Shown: piece after piece, positions 3,201 to 25,826 of the stretch
Layout of the letters: each line of letters opens with the position of its first letter
Numbering within the stretch: the stretch's first letter is position 1
Origin: Geotalea daltonii FRC-32
GTDB lineage: Bacteria; Desulfobacterota; Desulfuromonadia; Geobacterales; Geobacteraceae
Assembly: GCF_000022265.1 (NCBI RefSeq)
Contig: NC_011979.1
Location: 1,860,001-1,892,000, forward strand
DNA: 32,000 bases
Reading direction: 5' to 3'
Position numbers and translations under genes: made by a program
Notes under the pieces: generated by a model
Database searches by the model: none
Told to the model about the DNA's origin: nothing
What the model saw: only the letters and a program-made list of their open reading frames with translations

Positions 3201-3980
3201 ATGGCGGTGAAAAACTGGTTTTTTGTCTTTCTGCTGATTTCCTTGCCGGCTGTCTATGTGCAGCAGGCAGTCGCCCAGAAGGAGTCCCACCGGGATTATG
3301 CTTCCATGAAAGTTGTCGAGTGCAACGACTGTCACAAGAATGAGGGGGTCGCACTCAATCACGATGCCGACTGGCTGCGGGGGCACCGGCTGCCGGCCCA
3401 GAAGGGCGCCTCCAACTGCGGGCAGTGCCATGATCAGTCCTATTGTCTTGACTGCCATACGGGGGGAGGCATCAATGCCGATCTTTCAACCCAGAATTAC
3501 CGGCGGGATTATATCCCCAAAAGTCACAAGAGCGACTGGATAGAGATCCATCCCATAAAGGCCCAGGACAATCCCCAGTCCTGCACCCGCTGTCATGACC
3601 AGAAAAACTGCCAGGATTGCCATTCCCGGTACCGGTCCACAGACCTGCAGTTCCAGTCCCACCGGCGCCAGTTCCGGGACATCAAGGTCAGCGATATCGG
3701 CCCGAACCATGCCATCTTCACTACCGCCCAATGTCCCACATGTCACCAGGGGGGGATTCTGCCGAGCCATCAATGGTCATCGGATCATGCCTCGGAGGCG
3801 CGGCGCAATCTGCAGTCCTGCGGTACCTGCCACAGTGACGGCGATGTCTGCATGACCTGCCATAGCGCGCGCACCGGTCTCAAGGTCAATCCCCATCCAC
3901 GGAACTGGAACGGTGTCAAGGGCAACTACAGGGACAAGAGCAGCGGCAGGACCTGCGTCCGCTGCCATGACAGATTTTAA
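3201..3980 (+). CDS. Periplasmic multihaem c-type cytochrome with 9 CXXCH motifs (OmaB-like)
   Basis: SD AAGGGGG precedes the ATG and a signal peptide is present. Motifs: CNDCH, CGQCH, CLDCH, CTRCH, CQDCH, CPTCH, CGTCH, CMTCH and CVRCH in 259 aa. Confidence 0.85.
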   Translation: MAVKNWFFVFLLISLPAVYVQQAVAQKESHRDYASMKVVECNDCHKNEGVALNHDADWLRGHRLPAQKGASNCGQCHDQSYCLDCHTGGGINADLSTQNYRRDYIPKSHKSDWIEIHPIKAQDNPQSCTRCHDQKNCQDCHSRYRSTDLQFQSHRRQFRDIKVSDIGPNHAIFTTAQCPTCHQGGILPSHQWSSDHASEARRNLQSCGTCHSDGDVCMTCHSARTGLKVNPHPRNWNGVKGNYRDKSSGRTCVRCHDRF

Positions 3981-4015
3981 ACAAAGATAAATATACTGGA
4001 AAGGAGGAATCATCA

Positions 4016-6268
4016 ATGGGCAGAAGCGTATCGTTGCAGTTGTTCCTTGCCGTTTTCCTGGTGTCCGGGTTGCTTGGCGGCTGCGGCTCGTCCAAGAAAG
4101 AAGGTGAGCAACAGACTCAGGTGAGTGCCCCAACCAAAGTGGGTTCCGAAAGCTGTACCAACACCTGCCATAGTACCACCAGGGATATTACCGGCAATAT
4201 CATCGCCCAGACCTGGGCAAATACCACCCATACGACCGTGCAGGGTGTCCAGTGCGAGGATTGTCACGGCGGCGGCAGCATGCACTGGGGGGTCGGGCCG
4301 ATGCCGTTCCCCATTCCCCAGGCCGAGCAATGCAGCCAGGCCAGCTGTCATGCCTCTTTCCTTTCGGGCTTCAATCAGACCGCCCATGCCAACACCCACG
4401 CGGAAGGGGCGCCTTTCGGGCCTGACAAGTTTTTCTTCCAGGGAGACCCCGGCAGCGGCCAGGCAAGTCTGAGAACAAGAAACGGGGCTGATATTCAGGA
4501 GGTTACGCCGACCGGTCAGCCTGTGAACAAATCCCAGCACATTGTGGAATGCTCGGTCTGCCATAATCCCAACCAGCGTTTCGTCGCCTACAGTACGAAC
4601 CTTTTCAGGCCCGCCCAGAGGGTCTTCACCAGCAGTGATTCTCAGGACCAGGACGGGGAAAGCAATTTCTTCCAGAGCCGCTACATCAACCCTGCGGTTT
4701 CCTGTGCCGGTTGCCACGATGCCCATCAGCCCCAGCAGATGGTCAAAATCCCCCAGCGTAGCAACCAGGTCGGTTACCCCATCTACCGACGCTACAGCAC
4801 CCCTGAACTGGGCAGAATCCAGGGAACCGTCTTTCAACCAAATGGGGTAGTGCTTACCGGAGTCCCAGTTGCCGGCGCCGCCACCAACAACAATGAAGTC
4901 AGCCCGGAACTACTCTGCGCTGCCTGCCATACGGTCAGCAAATACAAGTTCTCCAACCTTTCCACCCACCAGGATAACGTCTATCCCCAGTGGACCCATT
5001 CGGGACACGGTGAAAGAGAAAAGCCGGCCTGGGCCGAGTTTTCGGCAAACCCTGCAGGATACATCAATCCACTTACAGGACTCGCTTATACTGATCTCGG
5101 CCATGCCACCAGCTATCCCGTCGATATGGCACTCAGGAGTTATGGCGCCACCGCAAGTGCAACGAGCAATCAGGGTAACAACAATTTTGCCTGCTTCAAA
5201 TGCCACAACGGCCTCACCTCAATTGCATACCAGAAAAATATCCAGGGAACACCGGCAGCGCCGGTAGTTTTCGGAGATGCCAGTGCTACCTGCATCACCT
5301 GCCACGATCCCCACCAAAAAGGCACCTTTGCCGGCGGGGCAAATACCACCAGCAACATCCGGGTTCCGGTGGCAATGACCAATTACTCAACTGTCAACGT
5401 CAAGGTCTTCGGCAATGTCTTTCTGGACAACCAGCCGATCCCCCAGAACAATGCCAACGAGACCATCTGCATTTTCTGTCACCAGGGCCGGGAGAGCGGC
5501 TTTACTCTCTACCGCGCCAAGCTGGCTCCGGGTAAATCAGCCGCCGGTTCCTTCTTCAATCCCCATTACCTGGGTACCGCCGCAATGCTGTGGGGAGCCA
5601 ACGGTTACGAATTCAGCGGAAAATCCTACAGTGCCAATGTGGCCCACCAGCAAGCAAACTGTGCCAGCTGCCACATGGATAATGCCACTGAAGACAACAC
5701 CATCGGCGGACATAGCTGGAATCCGAACGTTGCTTCCTGCAATACCTCCAGTTGCCACGGCGGAGGAGTCGGCCCAGCTGTTGCGGCAAAACCGGGCACC
5801 GCCGCACCTGAGGTCAACGCTTACCGGGCTGCCTTCGATACCAGCGATTATGACGGCAGCGGTGCTCTTGAGCCGATAGCAGTTGAAATAAAAGGCCTTC
5901 AGGACAAACTTATCGCCCTCCTTGCCGCCAACGGCATTTTCTACACGGATCTCAAGTATCCCTATTTCTTTGCTGATCCTGCCTTTACCACCAACTACAC
6001 GGCCTGGAACACGGCGACCGGAGGTACAACAGCTTTCAAGGCTGCGTTCAATCTGCAATTCATCATCAAGGGGCTACCATCCGCGGCGACATCTCAAACG
6101 GCTGTGCCCAATGCTTCTGCAGCCGTGCATAACTACAAATACATTATCCAGTTGCTCCGCGATTCATACGAGGAATACAATGCGGTGGCAGCAGCCAAAG
6201 GGGCAACCCTTTCCGGTGTAAGGCCGGCGGGTACAAGACCTGCAACTGTCTATGGTCCGGGTCAGTAA
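4016..6268 (+). CDS. Outer-surface lipoprotein multihaem c-type cytochrome (OmcB-like)
   Basis: SD AAAGGAGG. Lipoprotein signal with lipobox LLGG|C23. There are 8 canonical CXXCH motifs (CEDCH, CSVCH, CAGCH, CAACH, CFKCH, CITCH, CIFCH, CASCH) plus CTNTCH (CX3CH), CSQASCH and CNTSSCH (both CX4CH). At 750 aa, its size and position after the porin and periplasmic cytochrome match the Geobacter omcB arrangement. Confidence 0.85.
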   Translation: MGRSVSLQLFLAVFLVSGLLGGCGSSKKEGEQQTQVSAPTKVGSESCTNTCHSTTRDITGNIIAQTWANTTHTTVQGVQCEDCHGGGSMHWGVGPMPFPIPQAEQCSQASCHASFLSGFNQTAHANTHAEGAPFGPDKFFFQGDPGSGQASLRTRNGADIQEVTPTGQPVNKSQHIVECSVCHNPNQRFVAYSTNLFRPAQRVFTSSDSQDQDGESNFFQSRYINPAVSCAGCHDAHQPQQMVKIPQRSNQVGYPIYRRYSTPELGRIQGTVFQPNGVVLTGVPVAGAATNNNEVSPELLCAACHTVSKYKFSNLSTHQDNVYPQWTHSGHGEREKPAWAEFSANPAGYINPLTGLAYTDLGHATSYPVDMALRSYGATASATSNQGNNNFACFKCHNGLTSIAYQKNIQGTPAAPVVFGDASATCITCHDPHQKGTFAGGANTTSNIRVPVAMTNYSTVNVKVFGNVFLDNQPIPQNNANETICIFCHQGRESGFTLYRAKLAPGKSAAGSFFNPHYLGTAAMLWGANGYEFSGKSYSANVAHQQANCASCHMDNATEDNTIGGHSWNPNVASCNTSSCHGGGVGPAVAAKPGTAAPEVNAYRAAFDTSDYDGSGALEPIAVEIKGLQDKLIALLAANGIFYTDLKYPYFFADPAFTTNYTAWNTATGGTTAFKAAFNLQFIIKGLPSAATSQTAVPNASAAVHNYKYIIQLLRDSYEEYNAVAAAKGATLSGVRPAGTRPATVYGPGQ

Positions 6269-8417: not shown

Positions 8418-8454
8418 GATGATGGGCAACCGGTGCCAACCGGATGACAAACGA

Positions 8455-8494
8455 AAAGCCGCGGATCGGAGGGTTGTGATCCGCGGCTTTTTTA
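8455..8494 (+). terminator. Rho-independent terminator
   Basis: GCCGCGGATC (8458-8467) / GATCCGCGGC (8478-8487) with a 10-nt loop, followed by T6 at 8488-8493. Confidence 0.85.
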
Positions 8495-8737
8495 GTTTTT
8501 CACCTGTTTCTTCGGCAGCCCGGCTATCTGTTAGTTAATAACAGATCCGTATGCTTTGTGTCACTGGAATTTCTTCCAGATTACCCTTTCGGAAACAGGC
8601 TGATATAACTATAACGCAGCTTAGGGTCATGTAAAGATATTTTTGTGAAATTAATTTAATATTACTCCTCCTTCTGCCCACCAGGTGATGCTCCTCACTC
8701 AACAATAAAAATCCCTGGGTTAGAGTTAGATATAAAA

Positions 8738-9097
8738 ATGGAAAAACTGAAAGGAGTATCACCGTTGATACGCTCTCTTTACGCCTTGAATGGCATCGTC
8801 GCCGTATTGCTTTATTTGCCGCAGATCAGGACTATTCTCAGGAACAAGGAAGAAGTGGGATCTTTTTCGCTGATAACCTTCGGCGGTTGGTCTGTCGGCT
8901 CGATCATCACCGCCCTTTATGCCTGGACCTTAATCGGGGATCCCATGTTTGCGGCAGTCAGTCTGGCGAACATGCTCGGCTCCGGCACCGTTTTCACCCT
9001 TGTTGCGGGCAGGCGCCTGAAAAACCGCCACCTGCCCGCGCTAACGACAAGGCACGAAACGGATGACGCTGATAGTCTCGCCGAGAACTTCGGCTAA
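8738..9097 (+). CDS. PQ-loop / SemiSWEET-like small three-helix membrane protein
   Basis: There are three hydrophobic helices. A Pro-Gln motif follows helix 1 (LLYLPQIRTILRNK) and then ..WSVGSIITALYAWTLIGDPMF.., as in PQ-loop/SemiSWEET proteins. The start is ambiguous: ATG 8738 lacks an SD, whereas TTG 8765 has AAAGGAG (8749-8755) 9 nt upstream. The last 57 nt overlap the convergent 9041..12460 gene. Confidence 0.45.
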   Translation: MEKLKGVSPLIRSLYALNGIVAVLLYLPQIRTILRNKEEVGSFSLITFGGWSVGSIITALYAWTLIGDPMFAAVSLANMLGSGTVFTLVAGRRLKNRHLPALTTRHETDDADSLAENFG

Positions 9098-12000
9098 AGA
9101 GCGAAGGACATACTCGATCTCTTCCTCGGTATTGTCGTTCCCCAGGGAGAAGCGGACCGAGCAGTGAGCCTGCTGGGGGGTAAGCCCCATGGCGGTCAGG
9201 ACGTGGGATGGGTCCGGATTTCCCGATTTGCAGGCAGATCCGGAGGAAAAGGCGATTCCCTTCCTGTCCATGAGGAGGACCAGCGATTCCCCCCGTATTT
9301 CCGGCAGGGTCATACTGAGGGTGTTGGGGAGCCGCCCGTTTGGTGGCCCGTTGCTTTTTGCCATCGGCAGCAGCGCCCTTATTCCTCTTTCCAGCTTTTC
9401 ACGAAGGGCAGCCAGCCGCTTGGGTCCCTCACCATTCAACCGGCAGAGAGCCAGCTCTACTGCCCGGCCAAAGCCGACAATTCCGGGCACATTCTCAGTG
9501 CCGGCACGCAGCCCCCATTCCTGTCCTCCCCCCTTGACCAGCGGGGCTAACCTCAGATCCTTCCGCACATAAAGCGCCCCGACCCCCTTTGGTCCATGGA
9601 GCTTGTGGGCGGATACCGAAAGCAGATCAATCCCCAATTCAGCCACATCGATGGCTATCTTGCCGAAAGCCTGCACCGCGTCGGTGTGAAAAAGGGCACC
9701 ACAGCCATGGGCAATCTCGGCCAACTCCCTCACCGGCTGGATGGCGCCGGTCTCATTATTGGCGAGCATGATGGACACCAGCAGTGTATCCGGTCGGATG
9801 GCAACGGCCAGAGCTGACGGTTCGACAACTCCGGCCCGGTTTACCGGCAGGATCGTCAGCTCGTATCCGAGTGTCGCCAATGCCCGGCAGGGGACCAGCA
9901 CTGCGGGATGCTCGATGCTGCTGGTGATGATGTGCCGGCGTTCCCCACCTGAAGCCGCTGCCAGACCTTGAATGGCGAGGTTATCCGCTTCTGACCCTCC
10001 ACCGGTAAAGACGATGCGCCGGGCGGTGCAGTTGAGCCCCTGGGCAACGACTCTGCGGGCAGCTTCTATGGCTGTCCTGGCCGCATTGCCAAAACTGTGG
10101 ATGCTTGAGGGATTGCCGCATTGCTCCCCCAGGAAGGGAAGCATTACCTCACGTACCTCAGGGGCAACATGGGTGGTGGCATTGTGGTCCAGGTAGACCG
10201 CCTGCCGGGATTCCCTTTGAACAGTGAGAGGCTCGTATGCCGGTATTTCTTCAGCCTTGTCTTCTGTTTCAATACCTTGATTCCTTTTAATAGATCGGCT
10301 GCCATCGGCCAGTTTCATTACCCGGCAGAGCAGGGTTTTATATATGGGGAAGCCGGAGATGGGGTCGAATCGGCCGATGTCCGTAAGTTCGTTGACGTTG
10401 CATTGCTGCCATTCTGCCGGTCCCAGCGGACCGCCTCCCCCCATGGCGGCGTCAATGGTGCCGCGCATCATGTGGTCGGAAAGCCTTGCCGTAAACAGAG
10501 CGCGGCCACGGGGCGTTTCCACCCAGACCTGTTCACCTTCCCCTATGCCCGATTCCATTGCTTCCCCTCTGTTCATCATCACCGGCGGACTGTCATGATG
10601 TTCGGCAAGTGACCGGACCCCATGGTGCTGGCTGCGGAAATCGAATCTGGTCCTGCCACCGGAGTTGAAAACCAGGGGATATTCCCGTGCCAGCTCCGGG
10701 GCGGCCAGCGGCCCTTCTGCAGGCTCGGTATAGACCGGCAGAGGATCATACCCATGCTCGGCCAGGATTGAGGAGGCAATCTCGAACTTGCCGCTGGGGG
10801 TGTTGAAGCCGGGGCGGCCGTCGGCCCGAAGCAGCCCCTTTTCCCACTTCCGGTACTGCATCATGGCTGTCGGCAATCGCACTTCTCCCCCGGCTTTCCT
10901 TACCTCATCCAAAGAAAAGCCGCTGCCGTCCAGGGCATGGCGCAGGAGTTCCTCTTCCGATCTTGGATAAAGGTGCCCGTAGCCCAGGCGCCCGGCCAGT
11001 TCTGCCAGGATGAGGAAATCATTGCGCGCCTCCCCCTGCGGCTCCACAAGGCGTTCACGGATCTTGAACATCGGGCCGAAACGCATGTATGAAGTGATCT
11101 CGTAGTAGGTGGCAGCGGGCAGGACGATGTCCGCATAGGCGGAGTCGGCAGTGTGGTAGCGGTTAATGCTGACCATGAAATCCAGGGCATCCAGGGTCTT
11201 GCGCCATATTTGCGGTTGCGGCCAGGCGGTGATGATCGACCCGCCGAGGACGGTCAGGGCGCGGATCGGGTATGGTTTGTCATGCAGGACCGCATCGGGA
11301 AGGGCAATGGCGTGGGATTCACCACGATATGCGCTATAGACCGGGAAGCGGTCCCGCCCCAGAGCCTTCTTCATATCTGGATTGGGGATGAGGCGTGAGC
11401 GATTCTGGGGAAAGATATTTTCCTTCATGCGGAAGACCAGTCCTCCCGGCACGTCCAGTTGACCGGCCAGAGCCCACAACGTAAAGACGCCGCGGATGGC
11501 CTGGACGCCGCTGTCGGAATATTCCAGCCCGGTGTACATGACCGGCACGGAACCCCGAGCTGCCACCACTTCCCGTGCCAGCTCACGCACCGTTTCTGCC
11601 GGTACCCCGGTTATGCTTTCCACCACCTCCGGCCGGTAGTGCTGGACCAGCTGCTTCAATTCCTCGAATCCCACCGTCCAGTTGGCGGCGAATTTTTCGT
11701 CATAAAGCTCTTCCTCAACCAGTACGGCAATCATCCCCAGGGCCAGCGCTCCATCGGTACCGGACCGGATGGGGACCCACCTGGCGCCGGTCTCACGGGC
11801 GGTCTCACCCAGGCGCGGGTCAATGGCGATGATCCGTGCGCCACGCTCCCGCGCCTTCAGGATCTGCAGGTGATTCAGCGGCGGCGAGTCGGTGGCGGGA
11901 TTGGCCCCCCAGATGACGATCAGCTCTGCCTGCTCGATGTCCGCCTCCATTGTCACCAGCATCTCCCCCATGGTCACATGGGGAGCGATCATGGCAAAGG

Positions 12001-12460
12001 AGACGTAGCAGAGGGCGCCGACACCAAGGGTGTTGGGGGACCCGAAGGGGAAAAGGACGCTGGAGGCGGAGGACACAGCCACATCAGCCGGCTGGAAGAC
12101 ATCGCACAGTGCCATGTCGAAGCTGCCCCGGCCGGTATAAAAGGCTACCGCTTCCGGTCCCGAACTATTTTTTATTTCCTGAAAACGGGAGACGATAGTA
12201 TTGAAGGCTTCATCCCAGGAAATCCGTTCAAATTGATAGGTTCCCTTGGGGCCAGTGCGGCGCAGGGGATGAAGAAGCCGGTCCGGATCGTGGACGATTT
12301 GGGGAGAATGCCGGCCGATATGGCAGATCATCCCCAGGGGGTGCCCATTATGGGGCTCTACCTTTAGTAACCGGCCTTCCCTGATGGTGGCCGTTATGAA
12401 ACAGCCGGCAGGACAGATGCCGCACAGGCCATGGCGGATTTCGATCCTGTCCTCCGTCAC
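9041..12460 (-). CDS. Metallopterin-dependent ergothioneine synthase (MES)-like bifunctional protein: an acetylene-hydratase-related Mo/W-bis-pyranopterin domain fused to a NifS/IscS-type cysteine desulfurase
   Basis: Single uninterrupted 1139-aa ORF. The N-terminal part has the MopB Fe-S motif C13-x2-C16-x3-C20...C46, ISWDEAF, IDPR, GTDGAL and LYDEKFAANWTVGFEELK, and continues with typical MopB domains to about aa 715. The C-terminal part (aa 755-1139, nt 9044-10198) has YLDHNATT, SSIEHPAV, the PLP-lysine motif SVSAHKLHGPKG and the catalytic loop SSGSAC. The GTG start overlaps the upstream gene's stop codon (TAGTG). Confidence 0.75.
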   Translation of the reverse strand: MTEDRIEIRHGLCGICPAGCFITATIREGRLLKVEPHNGHPLGMICHIGRHSPQIVHDPDRLLHPLRRTGPKGTYQFERISWDEAFNTIVSRFQEIKNSSGPEAVAFYTGRGSFDMALCDVFQPADVAVSSASSVLFPFGSPNTLGVGALCYVSFAMIAPHVTMGEMLVTMEADIEQAELIVIWGANPATDSPPLNHLQILKARERGARIIAIDPRLGETARETGARWVPIRSGTDGALALGMIAVLVEEELYDEKFAANWTVGFEELKQLVQHYRPEVVESITGVPAETVRELAREVVAARGSVPVMYTGLEYSDSGVQAIRGVFTLWALAGQLDVPGGLVFRMKENIFPQNRSRLIPNPDMKKALGRDRFPVYSAYRGESHAIALPDAVLHDKPYPIRALTVLGGSIITAWPQPQIWRKTLDALDFMVSINRYHTADSAYADIVLPAATYYEITSYMRFGPMFKIRERLVEPQGEARNDFLILAELAGRLGYGHLYPRSEEELLRHALDGSGFSLDEVRKAGGEVRLPTAMMQYRKWEKGLLRADGRPGFNTPSGKFEIASSILAEHGYDPLPVYTEPAEGPLAAPELAREYPLVFNSGGRTRFDFRSQHHGVRSLAEHHDSPPVMMNRGEAMESGIGEGEQVWVETPRGRALFTARLSDHMMRGTIDAAMGGGGPLGPAEWQQCNVNELTDIGRFDPISGFPIYKTLLCRVMKLADGSRSIKRNQGIETEDKAEEIPAYEPLTVQRESRQAVYLDHNATTHVAPEVREVMLPFLGEQCGNPSSIHSFGNAARTAIEAARRVVAQGLNCTARRIVFTGGGSEADNLAIQGLAAASGGERRHIITSSIEHPAVLVPCRALATLGYELTILPVNRAGVVEPSALAVAIRPDTLLVSIMLANNETGAIQPVRELAEIAHGCGALFHTDAVQAFGKIAIDVAELGIDLLSVSAHKLHGPKGVGALYVRKDLRLAPLVKGGGQEWGLRAGTENVPGIVGFGRAVELALCRLNGEGPKRLAALREKLERGIRALLPMAKSNGPPNGRLPNTLSMTLPEIRGESLVLLMDRKGIAFSSGSACKSGNPDPSHVLTAMGLTPQQAHCSVRFSLGNDNTEEEIEYVLRSLAEVLGETISVIRFVPCR

Positions 12461-13527
12461 TATGAAGTACCTCCGGAGACTGCCGGGGAGAAGCCGTTCC
12501 GGCGTAACAGGAGAAGGGCGAACCAGCTACGTTCGTCAGTAAAGATCTCCTCGGCGGTAAAGCCATAGCCCTCCAGGAAAGGGAGGAATGTCTCAAGACG
12601 GAATTTCCGGCTGATCTCAGTATTTATGGCTTCACCTTCGTCAATGATAACATGCTGCCCTAGTGGCGCGATGTGGATCGCCTGGCGTTGGCTGAAGCGG
12701 GCACAGATATCCACCTGCTCCTTTGCCTCGTTGTAAACCGCCACATGCTGGACGGCAGACGGGTCTATGGAACTTCCCAGTTCCCGGTTCATGCGGATGA
12801 AAAGATTCCGGGTGAATTCCTGGGTTACGCCGGCAGCATCGTTGTAGGCGGCTTCAATGGTCTGACGCTCCTTGACCAGGTCGATGCCCAGCAGGAAGAA
12901 GTCGTCCCGGCAAAGGGACAGGGCAAGGTCATGGAGAAACAGGGACATCTCTTCGCCGGCGAAGTTGCCGATGCTGCTGCCAAGGAAGAGCACAGTCACC
13001 GGCGATATCTCGCGCAAGAGGGGGAAGGCACCCCTGTAGTCGCTGTTTATGCCGAGGACTTGTGTTGCCGGATGGCTGGCGGTTATGTTGCGGGAAGCTT
13101 CTCGCAGGGCGGCCTCGCTCACGTCGATCGGGATATATCTCACCGACTGTGCCTGGGCAAGCCAGGCCCGCAGCAGATAGTCGGTCTTTGTCGAATTGCC
13201 CGAACCGAGCTCCGCAAGTGTTGTGGCGCCGCATATTTTCCTGATGAAGCGTGCTTTGGTTGCGAGAATTTCAGCTTCAGTGCGGGTCAGATAATATTCG
13301 GGTTGACGGGTGATAAGGTCGAACAGCTCGCTGCCGCGGGCATCATAGAGAAAACGGCATTGGAGCCTGCGGGGCATGGAGCTGAGGCCGGCGGCGGTGG
13401 CGGAGGCAAAATCGATCAGCTGATCGGCCTCCGTCGAGTGCTGTCGAATGATCAGGCCGGAACGGTTCAGTGCTTTGCGAAAAGACTTGCGGACCGGCCA
13501 GGGGGCCGACGGAAAAGTTGCTTGCAT
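12460..13527 (-). CDS. egtD: EgtD-type SAM-dependent L-histidine N-alpha-methyltransferase (hercynine synthase)
   Basis: Motifs: FLYDARGSELFDLITRQPEYYLTRTEAEIL, ELGSGNSTKTDYLL, LGSSIGNF and TEISRKF, all hallmark EgtD-family blocks. I place the start at ATG 13527 because SD AAGGGAG lies 5-6 nt upstream. The longer track ORF (to 13743) would run into the divergent gene at 13628. Confidence 0.8.
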   Translation of the reverse strand: MQATFPSAPWPVRKSFRKALNRSGLIIRQHSTEADQLIDFASATAAGLSSMPRRLQCRFLYDARGSELFDLITRQPEYYLTRTEAEILATKARFIRKICGATTLAELGSGNSTKTDYLLRAWLAQAQSVRYIPIDVSEAALREASRNITASHPATQVLGINSDYRGAFPLLREISPVTVLFLGSSIGNFAGEEMSLFLHDLALSLCRDDFFLLGIDLVKERQTIEAAYNDAAGVTQEFTRNLFIRMNRELGSSIDPSAVQHVAVYNEAKEQVDICARFSQRQAIHIAPLGQHVIIDEGEAINTEISRKFRLETFLPFLEGYGFTAEEIFTDERSWFALLLLRRNGFSPAVSGGTS

Positions 13528-13627
13528 ATGACTCCCTTTGGACAGCAGGGGCAAAATGGGCAATAATATTAAAAAGTATAAATAAAGTCGGGGGAGAGTC
13601 AAATCAGGCTGAAACTCTGGAGGTAAC

Positions 13628-14134
13628 ATGAAGGGTAACGACCTGTTGCGAAAGGAATTACTGGCCCTGCTGTCCGGTGGGGAAGCCCATATGGATTTTG
13701 CCGATGTTGTCGCCCGGTTCCCCATGGAGCACATTAACAGCAAGGCACCGCATACACCCTATTCCTGCTGGCATTTCGTCGAACACCTGCGCATTGCCCA
13801 GTGGGACATCCTGCAGTTCATGATCGATCCCGATCATGTGTCGCCGGACTATCCCGAAGGTTACCGTCCGGCTCCTGACAAAAAAGCCGATGAAAAGGAT
13901 TGGTATGTGAGTGTGGAGGGGGTACTCTCAGACCTGGAGAACCTGAAGGGGATAGTCAGTAACCCGGAGACCGACTTTTTTGCCCCCATCCCCCATGCCA
14001 AAAGCTACACAATATTTCGGGAGATACTGCTGGTGGCGGACCACAACGCCTACCACATAGGCGAGCTGGCCCTGCTGCGTCAGGTACTGGGGATATGGCC
14101 GAAGGGGTTCGAATACCTTACCGGCAGGGCCTGA
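13628..14134 (+). CDS. DinB-superfamily (DinB_2-like four-helix bundle) protein
   Basis: SD GGAGG precedes the ATG. His-containing blocks HFVEHLRIAQWDIL and ADHNAYHIGELALLR are typical of DinB/YfiT-like metal-binding proteins. 168 aa. Confidence 0.6.
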   Translation: MKGNDLLRKELLALLSGGEAHMDFADVVARFPMEHINSKAPHTPYSCWHFVEHLRIAQWDILQFMIDPDHVSPDYPEGYRPAPDKKADEKDWYVSVEGVLSDLENLKGIVSNPETDFFAPIPHAKSYTIFREILLVADHNAYHIGELALLRQVLGIWPKGFEYLTGRA

Positions 14135-14337: not shown

Positions 14338-16266
14338 CTAGGGCGAAATGATGAATGGTGCCGACAGCGCCCATACATCGCCTGAGGTGGAAACCACCAT
14401 GATCCGGCAGCCGCTGCCGACTATGCCCAGGGTTTCCACTGGTGCCGAAAGGGTGAAGGTGCCGGTGGAAGCAGGAACCACCGTCGGCGTCAGCTTGACC
14501 CAGATGCTGCCGGGGAATGGATCGCCGGAAGAGAGGGGTGTGGCCAGTTTGCCCGGATCGTCAGCCAGCAGGAAGACCTCGACACCCGACGCAAAAAGAA
14601 GCGATCCGCCCCAGGTAACCGTGGGAGGCGCCGTGCCGAATTTCCAGATGGTGCCGCCTGCGGGGGCGGTGACCCCGGTGGGGTCCTGGAAGGTGGTCGT
14701 CATGAACGGTATGACCGAGGAAATCTGCATGGGGGATGGAGGACCGTAAAACAGCCAGGTGGTCTCGATCTCCCGCCGGTTGTCGAAATCCTCTGCGGCG
14801 ACGGTGAGGTTGCCGCCGATGGCAAGGACCGGCAAGGTGCTGCTGAAGGAGGCGCTGGTATCGCTTAGGAGCAGGTCCCTATCGAAGAAATACCCTGCTT
14901 TGCCGAGGGAGTCCCAACCGTAATAGTTGAGGTAGGTGTCGAACCAGCTCGCCTTGAAGGCGGTGGGCACGGCGACGCCGTAGGTCAGGGTGCCGCTGAT
15001 TCGTGCGTCGGCCAGATAATGGCCGTCGGTTGCCCCTGTGACCGGGGATATACCGGAAAGGGCTGGGAAATAGGCAGCTGTGACCTCGGAGCGCAGCCAT
15101 GGCCTTGCCGGCATGGTTACCGTCCTCGTTTCCACCACCACGTTGTTGCTGTCGTAAATACTGAAGGTATAGACGGAGTTCGGGGCTATGGAGCCCAGGG
15201 TGGCATCGTCAATGACATACATCTCCCACTGCTTGGTGGGCAGTTGAGGGGAGGCCCAGTAGGCGTTGCCGAGCCGCATCTGCTGCGGGTACATGGCGTC
15301 CTGGGCGAGAACTATGCCGCCGGTGGGGAGACCGGGTCCTTTAACGACAGCGGAAACGAGGCCGATGTTGTCCCGGTCTTCCACCCGGACCATGAACCCG
15401 GACTCTATCCGGACGCCTGTCGGCAGGCCCAGCCATTGGGCGGTAATTCCCCTCATCTCAACTGCCGACCGATAATTGTTGCCGGTGATCTTCCATTCCC
15501 CGTTTTCCTTGACCATGATGAAGCCGTCATCGGGGAAGCCGTAGGAGCCATCCTTGAAAAAGCCTTTACCGGTAACCTTGACCGGGCTGCCGACTGCGGC
15601 GGACAACGGTTTGGCTGAGGCGGTCAGGCTGACCATCCCTTTGGAGAGAATATCCCCGAATTTATAGTCCTTCACATCGAAATCAATGGCTGCCGCCCGT
15701 CCCAGACCGTCATGGATGCCGAAACTCGTTGCATAGAACCGATCCAGATCTGCAGCGGTCAGGGCGGTCCCCTTGGCCTCTATGGTATCCTTGAAGTACA
15801 GGTAAAGCTTGGCGGTTATGGCTTGATTGACGTCTTCCTGCATGGTGACCGGCACTGCCGTGTCGGTTCCGTTAAGATCGACGGTGGTGCTGCCGGTATA
15901 GGGGGTGTTATTGTAGTTATCCTGGGCAATCACCTTGAAGACACGGCCGCTGCCATTGGGAACGGCAAAGGAGTCGGATGCGGAAGTCTGCCCGGGGGCA
16001 ACGGTGATGACCCTGACGATGTCCGTCATGTCCGGTGCGGTGACGGTAATGGTTATCTTTTTGACGATGGAAGGAAGGATGCCTGTGCTGGTGGCTGCGG
16101 TGGTCATGCCGGCAAAGACCGTTTTTGATGTTACGCCCCCTTTTGCCGCAGCCTGGCCGAAACTTACCGTAACCTTGCTGGTTCCGGCAGTGCCACTCCC
16201 GGAACAGCCTGCACATGCCATCAATATGAAAAAGAGGAGGGTGGAAAAAATGAACCGGTTACCCAT
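14338..16266 (-). CDS. Large hypothetical lipoprotein (beta-rich; contains an NTF2/SnoaL-like segment)
   Basis: Lipoprotein signal MGNRFIFSTLLFFILMA|C, followed by GCSGSG. SD AGGGGG is present, and the gene starts 15 nt after the FecR-domain gene stop. It is Thr/Gly/Val-rich with Ig-like N-terminal repeats. The segment ..GFIMVKENGEWKITGNNY.. resembles NTF2-like folds. No enzyme motifs were recognised. Confidence 0.6.
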   Translation of the reverse strand: MGNRFIFSTLLFFILMACAGCSGSGTAGTSKVTVSFGQAAAKGGVTSKTVFAGMTTAATSTGILPSIVKKITITVTAPDMTDIVRVITVAPGQTSASDSFAVPNGSGRVFKVIAQDNYNNTPYTGSTTVDLNGTDTAVPVTMQEDVNQAITAKLYLYFKDTIEAKGTALTAADLDRFYATSFGIHDGLGRAAAIDFDVKDYKFGDILSKGMVSLTASAKPLSAAVGSPVKVTGKGFFKDGSYGFPDDGFIMVKENGEWKITGNNYRSAVEMRGITAQWLGLPTGVRIESGFMVRVEDRDNIGLVSAVVKGPGLPTGGIVLAQDAMYPQQMRLGNAYWASPQLPTKQWEMYVIDDATLGSIAPNSVYTFSIYDSNNVVVETRTVTMPARPWLRSEVTAAYFPALSGISPVTGATDGHYLADARISGTLTYGVAVPTAFKASWFDTYLNYYGWDSLGKAGYFFDRDLLLSDTSASFSSTLPVLAIGGNLTVAAEDFDNRREIETTWLFYGPPSPMQISSVIPFMTTTFQDPTGVTAPAGGTIWKFGTAPPTVTWGGSLLFASGVEVFLLADDPGKLATPLSSGDPFPGSIWVKLTPTVVPASTGTFTLSAPVETLGIVGSGCRIMVVSTSGDVWALSAPFIISP

Positions 16267-20471: not shown

Positions 20472-21242
20472 TTATTTCCCCTCCTGAAGGCGGCCCAACA
20501 GCCTGAGCAGGCCGTCAAGTATGGTGAACGGGTGGGGAGGGCAGCCAGGGATATAAAGATCCACAGGTAGCAGCCCATCCACACCATTGTGCACCTCCGG
20601 CGAGTCCATGAAAGGCCCTCCGTTGATGGCACAGGCACCGCTGGCGATGACGATTTTCGGTGCCGGCACTGCCTCATAGGTCTTCAGCAGCGCTTCCCGC
20701 ATATTTTCAGTAACCGGACCGGTCACCAGGATGCCGTCGGCATGGCGCGGCGATGCCACGAACTGGATGCCGAATCGTCCCAGGTCCCAAGCCACCGTTG
20801 ACAGAACGTTCACATCTGCCTCACAGGCATTGCACCCCCCTGCACATACCTCACGCAGTTTCAGAGACCGGCCGAAGAGGGAAAGCATTTTTGCTTCCAG
20901 CGCTTCGGTTAATTTCCGCTCTCCATCCGAAGATACGATCAAATCCCGGCGAGTTCTTGCCGCCAGCTTCTCATCGCGGCTGAACCTGATGGCTCCATGG
21001 GGGCACGACAGGGTGCACTCCGGACAGAACAGGCATTTGCCCATATCCAGTGCCAGACAGTTTTCATTGCGGCTGATGGCGCCGAATGGACAGGCATTGG
21101 CACACAGACGGCAGTCGGCAGGGCAGGCCTCGGCGTTGAGGACAGGGTAACCGCGGAAAAGCTCAGGCAATTGTGCCGGTTCATCGGGATATTTCAGGGT
21201 GCGGTGTTTCTGGTGGATGCGGGCGAGTATGGTTTTAAGCAT
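20472..21242 (-). CDS. Fused 2x[4Fe-4S] ferredoxin (HycF/NuoI-like) and NuoB/HycG-like small subunit of an Ehr/group-4-hydrogenase-type complex
   Basis: The N-terminal part has CPADCRLCANACP and CLFCPECTLSCP. The C-terminal part has GGCNAC, SPRHADGILVTG, ASGACAINGG and IPGCPP, the four NuoB-type cluster cysteines. Confidence 0.8.
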   Translation of the reverse strand: MLKTILARIHQKHRTLKYPDEPAQLPELFRGYPVLNAEACPADCRLCANACPFGAISRNENCLALDMGKCLFCPECTLSCPHGAIRFSRDEKLAARTRRDLIVSSDGERKLTEALEAKMLSLFGRSLKLREVCAGGCNACEADVNVLSTVAWDLGRFGIQFVASPRHADGILVTGPVTENMREALLKTYEAVPAPKIVIASGACAINGGPFMDSPEVHNGVDGLLPVDLYIPGCPPHPFTILDGLLRLLGRLQEGK

Positions 21243-21284
21243 AATATCCTCAGCTAAAAATATCGTCGGCAGATCGTTCGTACG

Positions 21285-22808
21285 TTAAAGGTCGAATCCG
21301 CAGTAGGACAGGTTGAAGCTCTTATTGCACAGGGGAAAATCCGATATCTGCTGGCCGCGCAGGGCCATGGCCAGTCCCGGCCAGTTATGGAAAGATGGAT
21401 CGACAATCTTGTAACGACTGAACCTGCCCGATTCGTCGGTCAGCGCCACATGACAGACCTCTCCTCGCCAGCCTTCGGTCAAGGCCACGGCAAGCCTTTC
21501 TCCGGCCGGCGCCCCCATATGGGTAGCATGGCGACCGCTGGGCAACTGACGCAGCTGTTCCTCCAGGAACTCCAGTGATTTTTCCGCTTCCAGCCATCTG
21601 ACCAGAGTCCGCCCGTAAACGTCTCCGCTTCTGGCGGTAACCACGGGAATCTGGCTCATCTGATAGATGCCGAAAGGGAAATCCTGGCGTGTATCGGTGG
21701 CAATGCCACAGGCTCTTGCTGCTGGGCCGGTGAGGGCGAGCTCTTTGGCCGTTTCCCTGCTGACGGTACCAGTGGCTTCAAGGCGGGCAAGCACCGAAGG
21801 GGTCGCCCAGATAAGATCGACGGCATTGGTCAGATCTTTTCGCGCTGATGCCAGTCGCTGCAGGAGTTCGTCCGACTGTTTCCGGCTGCAGTCGAAGCCG
21901 GTACCGCCGGGGCGGATCAGCCCCCGGCTGAAGCGACTGCCGCAAAGGATGGCGCTCATATTGAGGAAATCGCCCCTGATACGGCCACAGTAGGACGAGG
22001 TGGGAAGGTAGCCGGTGTCGCCGGCGATGGCCCCCAGGTCCCCGGTATGATTTGCCAGTCGTTCCAGTTCCAGGCCGATACCCCGTAGTACCTCTGCCTT
22101 GGCCGGCAGATGAATATTGGCCAGAGACTCCAGGATCATGCAGTGGGCCCATGCGTGGCCGACGGTGGTGTCTCCGGCTATGGTTTCCATCTCATAGAGG
22201 GTTCGTGGTTTCGGTCCGCCGATCAATGCCGCTTCGATGCCCCGGTGCTGGTATCCCAGGGCTATTTCCAGGTGGAAAACCTCTTCGCCGTGGCATTGGA
22301 AACGGAAATGTCCCGGCTCTATCACTCCGGCATGGACCGGCCCGACTGCAACTTCGTGGACTTCCTCTCCCTCGACCCGGTAGAAATCGGTGACACCGGG
22401 GAGGATGGCGCTCCTGTCGGCTCGTCCCCAGGCATCGTAACCGGGCCTGAAGGATTGGTGGAAACGGAGCGGTTTGAACCAGGGGTGTCCTTCCGGTACT
22501 ATCCCGAATTGCTCGGCGATTTCACGCTCGAAAAGATTGGCCTGTGGACAGTAAGGGGTAATGGAGGGAAAATTGCCGCTGCATTTGCTGCGCATCACTC
22601 CGATCAAGCCGTCGGCTCTGGCTGTTAGCACAACATAGAGATTAAGCTCGGCAGGGTTTCCTTCACCGAAAAAAGCGGAGATTTTCCAGCCGTGGTCTGC
22701 GGCGTTTATAATGGCCTGGAGAAATTCTTCCAGTCTCACCTCGGGGACTGCGGCAAGTGGTAAGGACTCGCCGTTGTAAAACGTCTTCATAAAGGAGGTG
22801 TCTGTCAT
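21285..22808 (-). CDS. NuoC-NuoD / HycE-like 'large subunit' lacking the [NiFe]-binding cysteines (Ehr-type)
   Basis: ATG 22808 overlaps the upstream stop codon (ATGA), with GGAGG 7 nt upstream. Conserved blocks are VGPVHAGVIEPGHFRF and LGYQHRGIE. The CxxCxxxH site reads AGDTTVGH, and the C-terminal [DE][PL]CxxCx[DE][RL] site reads NLSYCGFDL. Confidence 0.8.
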   Translation of the reverse strand: MTDTSFMKTFYNGESLPLAAVPEVRLEEFLQAIINAADHGWKISAFFGEGNPAELNLYVVLTARADGLIGVMRSKCSGNFPSITPYCPQANLFEREIAEQFGIVPEGHPWFKPLRFHQSFRPGYDAWGRADRSAILPGVTDFYRVEGEEVHEVAVGPVHAGVIEPGHFRFQCHGEEVFHLEIALGYQHRGIEAALIGGPKPRTLYEMETIAGDTTVGHAWAHCMILESLANIHLPAKAEVLRGIGLELERLANHTGDLGAIAGDTGYLPTSSYCGRIRGDFLNMSAILCGSRFSRGLIRPGGTGFDCSRKQSDELLQRLASARKDLTNAVDLIWATPSVLARLEATGTVSRETAKELALTGPAARACGIATDTRQDFPFGIYQMSQIPVVTARSGDVYGRTLVRWLEAEKSLEFLEEQLRQLPSGRHATHMGAPAGERLAVALTEGWRGEVCHVALTDESGRFSRYKIVDPSFHNWPGLAMALRGQQISDFPLCNKSFNLSYCGFDL

Positions 22809-24238: not shown

Positions 24239-24242
24239 CTAC

Positions 24243-24881: not shown

Positions 24882-24883
24882 GG

Positions 24884-25792: not shown

Positions 25793-25826
25793 GATGAAAC
25801 CTCTGTCCGGCTAGGCTGGCACTCGT

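What the first reader, a model, noticed from the sequence alone, without database searches (positions are those of the whole stretch)
9041..12460. Single 1139-aa fusion of an acetylene-hydratase-like metallopterin domain with a NifS-type cysteine desulfurase
One uninterrupted ORF joins two domains. The first is a MopB-family module with the N-terminal [4Fe-4S] motif C13/C16/C20/C46 and acetylene-hydratase-like blocks such as LYDEKFAANWTVGFEELK. The second is a complete class-V aminotransferase-fold desulfurase with PLP lysine in SAHKLHGPKG (about aa 953) and a persulfide cysteine in SSGSAC (about aa 1077). They are joined by a ~40-aa charged linker (nt ~10199-10320). This exact two-module architecture defines the metallopterin-dependent ergothioneine synthase described from Caldithrix abyssi. 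In that enzyme the desulfurase supplies sulfur to the Mo/W-pterin site, which inserts it at C2 of trimethylhistidine. It is a rare, recently recognised enzyme class restricted to anaerobes, and it is easily mis-annotated as 'molybdopterin oxidoreductase' or 'aminotransferase class V'.
Basis: partly seen in the sequence, partly recalled or inferred. Interest (0 to 1): 0.8.

Follow-up and report, generated by a model that had tools for sequence, protein, structure and literature searches.

The report
Known ergothioneine synthase of Geotalea daltonii

Summary
Window 9041..12460 on the minus strand is one uninterrupted 1139-aa ORF. It has an N-terminal bis-MGD (MopB) module, a variable 40-aa linker and a C-terminal NifS/IscS-type cysteine desulfurase.

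- Every residue that Beliaeva & Seebeck (JACS Au 2022) use to define the metallopterin-dependent ergothioneine synthase (MES) is present: the four Fe-S cysteines, metal ligand C151, PLP lysine K953, persulfide C1077, C1100 and the C-terminal C1138.
- The protein is 54-62% identical over its full length to the four MES enzymes shown to make ergothioneine in E. coli.
- Acetylene hydratase is its best solved-structure relative.
- The stop codon of an EgtD histidine methyltransferase gene overlaps the MES start codon.
- Across fetched loci, egtD lies beside 55 of 62 MES fusions and beside 0 of 22 stand-alone NifS genes.

It is not new. The protein is exactly UniProt B9M6I9 of Geotalea (Geobacter) daltonii FRC-32, which Table S1 of that paper lists by accession. 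RefSeq still names it "IscS subfamily cysteine desulfurase". Activity in this organism has not been tested.

Minor leads:
- Cys119 is conserved in MES but absent from the unfused relatives.
- A PQ-loop membrane gene converges on the MES 3' end.
- A c-di-GMP riboswitch with no gene behind it lies nearby.

The parts
12460..13527 (-). egtD: SAM-dependent L-histidine N-alpha-methyltransferase, 355 aa from ATG 13527. The mechanical ORF runs further up, to TTG 13743. The enzyme makes trimethylhistidine (hercynine), the substrate of MES.
   Evidence: NCBIfam TIGR03438 egtD_ergothio equivalog scores 304.5 bits, above its 290.9 cutoff. Pfam Methyltransf_33 gives 1e-94. The 95%-identical G. toluenoxydans orthologue is called at 355 aa. 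ATG is preceded by AAAGGGAG, and the TAG stop shares its G with the MES GTG start.
13575..13602 (-). Sigma-70-like promoter candidate upstream of egtD (TTGACT, 16 nt spacer, TATACT). This is a consensus match only.
   Evidence: 10 of 12 positions match. The region holds 4 such sites against 2.9 +/- 1.5 expected by chance, so the evidence is weak.
12470..12474 (-). GGAGG ribosome-binding site, 9 nt upstream of the MES GTG start and inside the 3' end of egtD.
   Evidence: Read directly from the sequence.
9041..12460 (-). mes: metallopterin-dependent ergothioneine synthase, 1139 aa, identical to UniProt B9M6I9 / WP_012646778.1 of Geotalea daltonii FRC-32.
   Evidence: Listed in Table S1 of PMC9516567.
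10325..12460 (-). N-terminal bis-MGD (Mo/W-pterin) module, aa 1-712. It is proposed to carry the Mo/W=S that sulfurizes C2 of trimethylhistidine.
   Evidence: Pfam PF00384 and PF01568. Best PDB hit is acetylene hydratase 2e7z at 1.2e-72. It is 57-67% identical to the N-modules of validated MES enzymes.
12323..12424 (-). [4Fe-4S] cysteine motif C13-x2-C16-x3-C20...C46.
   Evidence: The four cysteines align with the four cluster cysteines of acetylene hydratase and with CaMES C14/C17/C21/C48. C13, C16 and C20 are invariant and C46 is at least 90% conserved in 28 homologues.
12008..12010 (-). Cys151 codon: predicted protein ligand of the Mo/W centre, equivalent to CaMES Cys153.
   Evidence: The GVGALCYVSF motif is conserved in all MES compared and invariant in alignment A1. 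The residue aligns with the Cys of the acetylene hydratase MYMC motif. The CaMES C153S mutant is inactive.
12104..12106 (-). Cys119 codon: a cysteine invariant in MES fusions but absent from acetylene hydratase and from the unfused MopB relatives compared. It is a candidate additional sulfur-relay residue (hypothesis).
   Evidence: Invariant in 28 homologues and present in all four validated MES. Acetylene hydratase has Thr here. It is not Cys in the nine aligned unfused relatives (one is a gap); a tenth is not aligned at the N-terminal positions.
10205..10324 (-). Inter-domain linker, aa 713-752: charged, poorly conserved and predicted to be disordered.
9041..10204 (-). C-terminal PLP-dependent NifS/IscS-type cysteine desulfurase module, aa 753-1139 plus the stop codon.
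   Evidence: Pfam Aminotran_5 at 4.6e-81. TIGR03402 NifS scores 485.8 bits, and the NF002806 IscS subfamily model scores 309.7 against a cutoff of 304. Best PDB hit is cysteine desulfurase 9wep at 3.4e-110.
9602..9604 (-). Lys953 codon: PLP Schiff-base lysine, equivalent to CaMES K952.
   Evidence: It aligns with SAHKMYGPKG of the solved desulfurase. The CaMES K952A mutant is inactive.
9230..9232 (-). Cys1077 codon: persulfide-forming cysteine, equivalent to CaMES C1074.
   Evidence: The CaMES C1074S mutant makes 2000-fold less ergothioneine.
9161..9163 (-). Cys1100 codon: cysteine conserved in MES, equivalent to CaMES C1097, which is non-essential there.
   Evidence: The best solved stand-alone desulfurase has Gly at this position (SNGSVRFS).
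9047..9049 (-). Cys1138 codon in the C-terminal tail RFVPCR, equivalent to the essential CaMES C1135. It is proposed as the mobile carrier that passes the persulfide to the pterin site.
   Evidence: The xFxxC[RK] tail ends 50 complete MES ORFs and 0 of 22 stand-alone NifS ORFs. The CaMES C1135S mutant is inactive.

Best explanation
Window 9041..13527 (minus strand) is the two-gene anaerobic ergothioneine operon egtD-mes of Geotalea daltonii FRC-32.

Proposed pathway:
1. [quoted passage not shown]
2. The C-terminal PLP module of MES takes sulfur from L-cysteine as a persulfide on Cys1077.
3. The sulfur passes within the same polypeptide, through the C-terminal tail cysteine Cys1138, to the Mo/W bis-MGD centre of the N-terminal module. 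That centre is ligated by Cys151 and lies next to a [4Fe-4S] cluster on C13/C16/C20/C46.
4. The resulting metal-sulfido species is attacked by C2 of the imidazole ring of trimethylhistidine, giving ergothioneine without O2.

What is shown here: the architecture, all the diagnostic residues, homology to validated enzymes, the operon coupling, and the identity of the protein with a catalogued MES homologue.

What is inferred from Beliaeva & Seebeck 2022: the chemistry, the order of the sulfur relay and the metal. None of these has been tested for this protein.
For: - Single 1139-aa ORF with MopB plus Aminotran_5 domains.
- BLASTP to CaMES: 1255 bits, 58% identity over 1148 columns.
- 54-62% identity to CaMES, EaMES, AbMES and hvMES, all of which made ergothioneine in E. 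coli.
- 74% and 71% identity to Geobacter sp. SVR A0A6F9X0J6 and Geobacter sp. M21 C6E0P4, both listed in Table S1.
- All defining residues are conserved: C13/16/20/46, C151, K953, C1077, C1100, C1138.
- Acetylene hydratase is the top PDB hit, at 1.2e-72.
- The C-module is a bona fide NifS/IscS-type desulfurase.
- The EgtD equivalog scores above its curated cutoff and has a stop/start overlap with mes.
- egtD lies within 4 kb of 55 of 62 MES fusion loci and of 0 of 22 stand-alone NifS loci.
- The C-terminal CR tail is specific to the fusions.
- The exact sequence is B9M6I9 of G. daltonii, listed in Table S1 of PMC9516567.
Against: - There are no biochemical or metabolite data for G. daltonii. 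A literature search for ergothioneine plus Geobacter found nothing relevant.
- Full-length MES has never been purified, so the mechanism in the source paper is itself tentative.
- Activities of the tested homologues varied about 1000-fold in E. coli, so sequence conservation does not guarantee high activity.
- The AF2 model of the N-module was too poor (pLDDT below 50) to check the inter-domain sulfur path.
- The reference MES sequences were machine-read from a PDF and contain errors, so the identities are approximate lower bounds.
Confidence: 0.9

Rival explanations
1. As the databases annotate it: a housekeeping IscS/NifS cysteine desulfurase for Fe-S cluster or Moco sulfuration that happens to be fused to an ordinary molybdopterin oxidoreductase of the formate, polysulfide or DMSO reductase type. 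On this view it has nothing to do with ergothioneine.
For: - RefSeq calls it 'IscS subfamily cysteine desulfurase'.
- The NF002806 IscS subfamily model is passed: 309.7 bits against a cutoff of 304.
- The MopB module gives sizeable but sub-threshold scores to the Fdh-alpha and PhsA models.
Against: - All equivalog-level cutoffs are missed, for NifS, IscS, Fdh, PhsA and DmsA.
- The fusion-specific Cys1100 and the C-terminal CR tail are absent from stand-alone NifS.
- The gene is translationally coupled to egtD, and egtD accompanies 55 of 62 fusions and 0 of 22 stand-alone NifS genes.
- Four homologues with 54-62% identity make ergothioneine.
Confidence: 0.03
2. A true MES-fold enzyme with a different physiological role in Geobacteraceae. 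It might sulfurize another heterocycle, make selenoneine from selenocysteine, or run in reverse to salvage sulfur from imported ergothioneine.
For: - Sulfur transfer between ergothioneine and trimethylhistidine at the pterin site is reversible.
- The authors speculate that related Mo enzymes may sulfurize other heterocycles.
- Unfused relatives with 41-51% identity exist, and two examined contexts lack egtD.
- From general knowledge, NifS-type enzymes commonly also accept selenocysteine.
Against: - The co-translated EgtD supplies exactly the substrate trimethylhistidine.
- The N-module is 57-67% identical to those of validated MES enzymes, far above its 41-51% identity to the unfused relatives.
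- No selenium-metabolism genes appeared among the annotated neighbours.
Confidence: 0.05
3. The long ORF is an artefact: two adjacent genes, MopB and nifS, joined by a sequencing or assembly error in the linker.
For: - The linker is the least conserved segment.
- In the same 90% cluster, G. toluenoxydans has fragments of 623, 611 and 559 aa.
Against: - The same uninterrupted fusion of similar length is found in more than 120 clusters and about 50 complete ORFs from independent genomes in many phyla.
- The identical sequence occurs in the complete 4.3-Mb G. daltonii genome and in an independent Logan assembly.
- In CaMES, the fusion is functionally obligatory.
Confidence: 0.01

Closest known systems
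Metallopterin-dependent ergothioneine synthase (MES), type enzyme CaMES from Caldithrix abyssi (UniProt A0A7V4WV16; Beliaeva & Seebeck, JACS Au 2022, PMC9516567)
   Same: - Same order and size of modules: MopB about 712 aa, linker, desulfurase about 387 aa.
- About 58-59% identity overall, with the N-module at 63% and the C-module at 57%.
- Same Fe-S cysteines, metal-ligand Cys, PLP Lys, persulfide Cys, second conserved Cys and C-terminal Cys-Arg tail.
- Same pairing with an EgtD-type methyltransferase.
- The window protein, B9M6I9, is itself in the paper's list of MES homologues.

   Different: - The host is a Geobacteraceae species, not the deep-sea hydrothermal-vent Calditrichota source of CaMES.
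- The linker sequence is unrelated (9% identity).
- This orthologue has not been assayed.
- In Geobacteraceae a PQ-loop membrane gene converges on the 3' end of mes. Whether that also holds in C. abyssi was not examined.
Tungsten-dependent acetylene hydratase (Pelobacter/Syntrophotalea acetylenica, PDB 2E7Z)
   Same: - Best solved-structure relative of the N-module: 248 bits, E 1.2e-72, 31.5% identity over 635 residues.
- Same four-Cys [4Fe-4S] motif and same position of the Cys metal ligand.
- No twin-arginine motif is evident in the first 30 residues of the window protein.

   Different: - Acetylene hydratase is a stand-alone protein of about 730 aa with no desulfurase.
- The Asp that follows the second cluster cysteine in acetylene hydratase is Pro17 here and Pro or Ser in other MES. 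By my own recollection of the acetylene hydratase literature, that Asp is Asp13, the residue that activates water.
- The chemistry differs: hydration versus C-S bond formation.
- Unfused MopB proteins of unknown function, at 41-51% identity, are closer relatives than acetylene hydratase.
NifS/IscS type I cysteine desulfurases (for example PDB 9wep, 4eb5, 1p3w, 5wt2)
   Same: The C-module aligns end to end (E 3e-110 to 1e-85) and keeps the PLP lysine and the SSGSAC persulfide loop. It passes the NCBIfam IscS subfamily model.
   Different: - It is fused to a MopB module.
- It carries Cys1100 and the C-terminal xFxxC[RK] tail, which all 22 stand-alone NifS genes examined lack.
- It misses the NifS and IscS equivalog cutoffs.
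- Sulfur is delivered intramolecularly to a pterin-bound metal rather than to scaffold proteins.
EanA/EanB anaerobic ergothioneine pathway (Chlorobium limicola) and EgtB/Egt1 aerobic pathways
   Same: The overall logic is the same: an EgtD-family methyltransferase makes trimethylhistidine, and a second enzyme then installs sulfur at C2. Like MES, EanB works without O2.
   Different: The sulfur-inserting enzyme is unrelated. It is a rhodanese-like EanB or a non-haem-iron EgtB, against the Mo/W-pterin plus PLP fusion here. Pfam found no rhodanese or EgtB-type domain in any of the window ORFs that were scanned.

Membership tests
Metallopterin-dependent ergothioneine synthase (MES) | One polypeptide with an N-terminal bis-MGD (MopB) module and a C-terminal class-V PLP desulfurase | tested here: met
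   Uninterrupted 1139-aa ORF. Pfam PF00384 and PF01568 at aa 61-709, PF00266 at 755-1118.
Metallopterin-dependent ergothioneine synthase (MES) | Four N-terminal cysteines for a [4Fe-4S] cluster (CaMES C14, C17, C21, C48) | tested here: met
   C13, C16, C20 and C46 are aligned in all MES and in acetylene hydratase.
Metallopterin-dependent ergothioneine synthase (MES) | Cysteine ligand to the Mo/W centre (CaMES Cys153) | tested here: met
   C151 lies in GVGALCYVSF, is invariant, and aligns with the Cys of the acetylene hydratase MYMC motif.
Metallopterin-dependent ergothioneine synthase (MES) | PLP lysine (K952) and persulfide cysteine (C1074) in the desulfurase module | tested here: met
   K953 and C1077.
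Metallopterin-dependent ergothioneine synthase (MES) | MES-conserved Cys1097 and the essential C-terminal Cys1135 | tested here: met
   C1100 and C1138 in the tail RFVPCR. The tail is present in 50 complete MES ORFs and in 0 of 22 stand-alone NifS ORFs.
Metallopterin-dependent ergothioneine synthase (MES) | Co-encoded with a histidine-specific EgtD-type methyltransferase | tested here: met
   TIGR03438 scores 304.5 against a cutoff of 290.9. The egtD stop overlaps the mes start. egtD is adjacent in 55 of 62 loci.
Metallopterin-dependent ergothioneine synthase (MES) | Close full-length homology to experimentally active MES enzymes, or listing in the authors' catalogue | tested here: met
   54-62% identity to CaMES, EaMES, AbMES and hvMES. 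The exact sequence is B9M6I9, listed in Table S1.
Metallopterin-dependent ergothioneine synthase (MES) | Converts trimethylhistidine plus cysteine-derived sulfur into ergothioneine; binds Mo or W bis-MGD | not testable with these tools
   This needs expression and LC-MS. Only homologues have been assayed.
Acetylene hydratase (EC 4.2.1.112) | Asp immediately after the second cluster cysteine. My recollection of the acetylene hydratase literature is that this is the catalytic Asp13; that is not a result obtained here. | tested here: not met
   The aligned position is Pro17 in the window protein and Pro or Ser in other MES.
Acetylene hydratase (EC 4.2.1.112) | Stand-alone MopB protein of about 730 aa | tested here: not met
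   It is fused to a desulfurase and identity to 2e7z is only 31.5%.
NifS / IscS cysteine desulfurase (Fe-S assembly equivalogs) | Score above the NCBIfam equivalog cutoffs (TIGR03402 NifS 530.75; TIGR02006 IscS 643.2) | tested here: not met
   485.8 and 357.7 bits. Only the broad subfamily model NF002806 is passed (309.7 against 304).
EgtD (L-histidine N-alpha-methyltransferase), for the upstream gene | Score above the TIGR03438 equivalog cutoff; conserved substrate-binding motifs | tested here: met
   304.5 bits against 290.9. The motifs EYYLTRTE, GSSIGN, AYNDAAGVT and TEISRKF align with M. smegmatis EgtD at about 40% identity. That reference sequence was partly reconstructed, so this comparison is only indicative.

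The most novel reading that the evidence does not exclude
In Geobacteraceae the egtD-mes pair may belong to a slightly larger module. The extra part would be the small PQ-loop (SemiSWEET-like, predicted three-helix) membrane protein at 8738..9097 (+), which converges on and overlaps the 3' end of mes. It could be a dedicated carrier for the cationic betaines hercynine or ergothioneine, which would make it a bacterial ergothioneine transporter of a new type.

The gene keeps this position in G. daltonii, G. toluenoxydans, Geobacter sp. SVR and two Geomonas species, even though the outer flanks differ.
Probability: 0.12. Interest if true: 0.5.

Novelty: already known. Interest (0 to 1): 0.15.

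Why it matters
The value is mainly for annotation. A published enzyme class is still labelled "IscS subfamily cysteine desulfurase" or "aminotransferase class V" in RefSeq and UniProt. This includes a cultivated and well-studied Fe(III)/U(VI)-reducing Geobacteraceae strain.

G. daltonii FRC-32 is cultivable and has a complete genome sequence. That makes it a practical host for questions the discovery paper left open:
- whether strict anaerobes really accumulate ergothioneine, and what it does in them;
- whether the enzyme uses Mo or W in vivo;
- how sulfur travels from the desulfurase to the pterin site.

Nothing here changes the understanding of the enzyme class.

Tried and rejected
- AlphaFold2 on the full-length protein with 28 homologues. 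Mean pLDDT was 57.5, the N-module was mostly below 50 and only the desulfurase module was confident. The model could not be used for the inter-domain interface or for a fold search, so no fold search was run. The alignment could not be made deeper, because only close homologues (66% identity or more) were allowed as input.\n- Search for a solved MES structure. None exists in the PDB copy. The nearest entries are acetylene hydratase and stand-alone desulfurases.\n- Literature search for ergothioneine in Geobacter, and for follow-up work on MES since 2023. Nothing relevant turned up in the held library.\n- Rfam scan for a riboswitch (Moco, SAM) upstream of egtD-mes. None was found. The only hit is an unrelated c-di-GMP-I aptamer downstream.\n- The genome-contig scan did not return the source genome. 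The organism was identified instead by exact-sequence look-up.\n- The reference sequences for CaMES, EaMES, AbMES and hvMES came from machine-read SI text with obvious reading errors. They were used only for approximate identities and motif checks, which were cross-checked against clean database sequences P0027 and P0055.\n- The M. smegmatis EgtD comparison used a partly reconstructed sequence and is only indicative. The NCBIfam equivalog score is the real test.\n- No formal phylogeny of the N-module within MopB was built, because reference sequences were not retrievable. Placement rests on ranked scores: MES 57-67% identity, then unfused relatives at 41-51%, then acetylene hydratase at 31.5%, then PsrA, then Fdh.\n- Cys712 was considered as an MES-specific relay residue and rejected. 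It is also conserved in all ten unfused relatives aligned.

Full report
**Observation**

The ORF listing shows one uninterrupted ORF at 9041..12460 on the minus strand, 1139 aa with a GTG start. Pfam finds Molybdopterin (aa 61-490), Molydop_binding (601-709) and Aminotran_5 (755-1118).

- Cysteines at 13, 16, 20 and 46.
- LYDEKFAANWTVGFEELK at 252-269.
- K953 in SAHKLHGPKG.
- C1077 in SSGSAC.

The linker is aa 713-752 (nt 10205..10324). 16 of its 40 residues are charged, against 22% overall. It is 3-20% identical to homologues, while the two domains are 52-77% identical. The AF2 model gives it low confidence.

A GGAGG lies 9 nt upstream of the GTG start.

**Is the fusion real?**

A search of 5.8 billion protein clusters returned more than 120 clusters with the same three Pfam domains. 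They are about 1090-1210 aa long and 66-97% identical.

A scan of one genome per species fetched 58 further loci with both modules on one reading frame. They come from Geobacteraceae, Myxococcota, Desulfobulbaceae, Syntrophobacterales, Thermodesulfovibrionia, Nitrospirota, Dehalococcoidia, Zixibacteria, Bacteroidota, Planctomycetota and others. The fusion is therefore ancient and conserved, not an assembly error.

**What it is**

Beliaeva & Seebeck (JACS Au 2022, PMC9516567) define the metallopterin-dependent ergothioneine synthase (MES) by these features:
- an N-terminal MPT module related to acetylene hydratase, with four Fe-S cysteines and the metal ligand Cys153;
- a C-terminal cysteine desulfurase with Lys952, Cys1074, Cys1097 and Cys1135;
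- co-encoding with an EgtD-type histidine methyltransferase.

The window protein has the equivalent of every one: C13/C16/C20/C46, C151, K953, C1077, C1100 and C1138. All are invariant in an alignment of 28 homologues except C46, which is at least 90% conserved.

Against the sequences printed in the paper's SI it is 59% identical to CaMES, 56% to EaMES, 62% to AbMES and 54% to hvMES. BLASTP to CaMES gives 1255 bits. Those sequences were machine-read, so the identities are lower bounds. All four enzymes made ergothioneine in E. coli. The window protein is also 74% and 71% identical to clean database sequences of Geobacter sp. SVR and Geobacter sp. M21, which the paper's Table S1 lists as MES homologues.

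**N-module placement**

Ranked PDB hits for the N-module:

| PDB entry | Protein | Bits |
|---|---|---|
| 2e7z | Acetylene hydratase | 248 (E 1.2e-72) |
| 2vpw | Polysulfide/thiosulfate reductase PsrA | 208 |
| 1aa6 | Formate dehydrogenase H | 173 |
| (several) | DMSO/TMAO and nitrate reductases | lower |

- Identity to acetylene hydratase is 31.5% over 635 aligned residues.
- The Fe-S cysteines and the metal-ligand Cys align with those of acetylene hydratase.
- The Asp that follows the second cluster cysteine in acetylene hydratase is Pro17 here. By recollection, not by a test here, this is the catalytic Asp13. The protein is therefore like acetylene hydratase in fold but is not an acetylene hydratase.

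An exhaustive HMMER search of 1.84 billion cluster representatives adds a nuance. At 50% clustering, only one full-length fusion representative appears near the top of the list (P0125, 1139 aa). The next relatives are unfused MopB proteins of about 715-735 aa at 41-51% identity, closer than acetylene hydratase. Two of their genomic contexts show neither egtD nor a desulfurase.

No NCBIfam MopB model is passed.

**C-module**

It is a type I NifS/IscS desulfurase. TIGR03402 scores 485.8 bits, which is below the equivalog cutoff, and the IscS subfamily model NF002806 is just passed. The best PDB hit is 3.4e-110.

Two features set it apart from stand-alone enzymes:
- Cys1100, where the best solved homologue has Gly.
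- The C-terminal tail xFxxC[RK]. It ends 50 complete fusion ORFs and 0 of 22 stand-alone NifS ORFs fetched in the same scan.

**Context**

Immediately upstream on the same strand is egtD. The mechanical ORF is 12460..13743, and the likely true start is ATG 13527, giving 355 aa as called in the 95%-identical G. toluenoxydans orthologue. It passes the NCBIfam EgtD equivalog cutoff (304.5 against 290.9 bits). Its TAG stop shares a base with the mes GTG start (ATAGTG), which implies translational coupling.

Position of egtD across the 62 fusion loci:

| egtD position | Loci |
|---|---|
| Upstream, same strand | 28 |
| Downstream, same strand | 25 |
| Other arrangement | 2 |
| Not within the fetched flank | 7 |

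Four of the seven loci without egtD are cut by contig ends. None of the 22 stand-alone NifS loci has an egtD.

Pfam on the other annotated window ORFs finds multihaem cytochromes, a methylpurine glycosylase, an O-methyltransferase, FecR and TPR proteins, and a complex-I-like membrane cluster. I see no functional connection between these and ergothioneine synthesis.

**Mechanism (inferred from the paper, not tested here)**

1. EgtD makes trimethylhistidine.
2. The PLP module abstracts sulfur from cysteine onto Cys1077.
3. The persulfide is handed on within the same chain, through Cys1138, to the Mo/W bis-MGD centre held by Cys151.
4. The imidazole C2 of trimethylhistidine attacks the metal-sulfido ligand to give ergothioneine. 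The reduced metal is then re-sulfurized.

In CaMES, the mutations K952A, C1074S, C1135S and C153S each abolish production, and the two modules must sit on one polypeptide.

**Novelty**

Exact look-up identifies the window protein as UniProt B9M6I9 / ACM20049.1 / WP_012646778.1 of Geotalea (formerly Geobacter) daltonii FRC-32. [quoted passage not shown]

The finding is therefore correct but already known. What remains open is only experimental confirmation in this organism. The original GenBank name already recognised a 'bis-(molybdopterin guanine dinucleotide)-oxotungsten-binding oxidoreductase and ...' fusion.

**Small new observations**

- Cys119 is invariant in MES fusions. It is Thr in acetylene hydratase and not Cys in the unfused relatives aligned at that position. 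It is a candidate extra relay residue. Cys712 is conserved in the unfused relatives too, so it is not MES-specific.
- A PQ-loop membrane gene converges on and overlaps the mes 3' end by 57 nt. This arrangement is kept in five Geobacteraceae loci but not in other taxa.
- A c-di-GMP-I riboswitch with no gene behind it lies at 8511..8595 on the minus strand.

**Verdict**

Confidence that this is a functional MES orthologue is about 0.9. Novelty is 'already known' and interest is low.

Noticed in passing
window 8511..8595 (-), with a promoter-like site at 8635..8608 (-) and a hairpin plus T-run at 8453..8492: A full-length c-di-GMP-I (GEMM-I) riboswitch aptamer: RF01051, 52.5 bits against a gathering score of 35, E 1e-7. 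A terminator-like hairpin follows it, but no plausible minus-strand gene does; it would read antisense into the methylpurine-glycosylase gene. The same aptamer sits in the same place in G. toluenoxydans (L001 9866..9950). A c-di-GMP-I-UAU variant lies downstream of the PQ-loop gene in Geobacter sp. SVR (L002 10023..10100), where it precedes a PAS-domain gene.
   Followed up: partly
window 8738..9097 (+): A small (110-119 aa) PQ-loop membrane protein gene (Pfam PF04193, 26.2 bits) that converges on mes and overlaps its 3' end by 57 nt. The arrangement is kept in G. toluenoxydans, Geobacter sp. SVR, Geomonas paludis and Geomonas propionica, but not in the other fetched MES loci. It has no PDB hit and no meaningful NCBIfam hit (one hit far below cutoff, E 0.007). 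It may be a betaine or ergothioneine carrier, or just a neighbour.
   Followed up: partly
window 12104..12106 (-), Cys119 of MES; also 10325..10327, Cys712: Cys119 is invariant in 28 MES homologues and in the four validated MES. It is Thr in acetylene hydratase and not Cys in the unfused MopB relatives aligned there. The parts of the discovery paper that were read do not discuss it. Cys712 is invariant as well, but the unfused relatives also keep it.
   Followed up: partly
proteins P0126, P0128, P0131, P0132 (loci L085, L086): Unfused MopB proteins of about 725-735 aa, 41-51% identical to the MES N-module. That is much closer than acetylene hydratase. They keep the Fe-S and metal-ligand cysteines, and the two contexts examined have no egtD or desulfurase nearby. 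Function is unknown; they may be the sister group from which MES arose.
   Followed up: partly
window 12460..13743 (-): The mechanical egtD ORF extends 72 codons upstream of the likely start (ATG 13527, preceded by AAAGGGAG) to a TTG. The Pfam domain begins only at residue 114 of the long form, and the G. toluenoxydans orthologue is called at 355 aa.
   Followed up: yes
window 3201..6268 (+) and 20472..27830 (-): Two multihaem c-type cytochrome genes (MtrC/MtrF-like domains, 259 and 750 aa). Separately, a six-gene cluster of complex-I-like / Mrp-antiporter-like membrane subunits with Oxidored_q6 and fused 30 kDa/49 kDa subunits, which resembles an Ech/Mbh-type membrane-bound complex.
   Followed up: no
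window 13628..14134 (+) and 14338..16266 (-): Two conserved ORFs next to the operon, 168 aa and 642 aa, with no Pfam or NCBIfam match. Both are also called in G. toluenoxydans.
   Followed up: no
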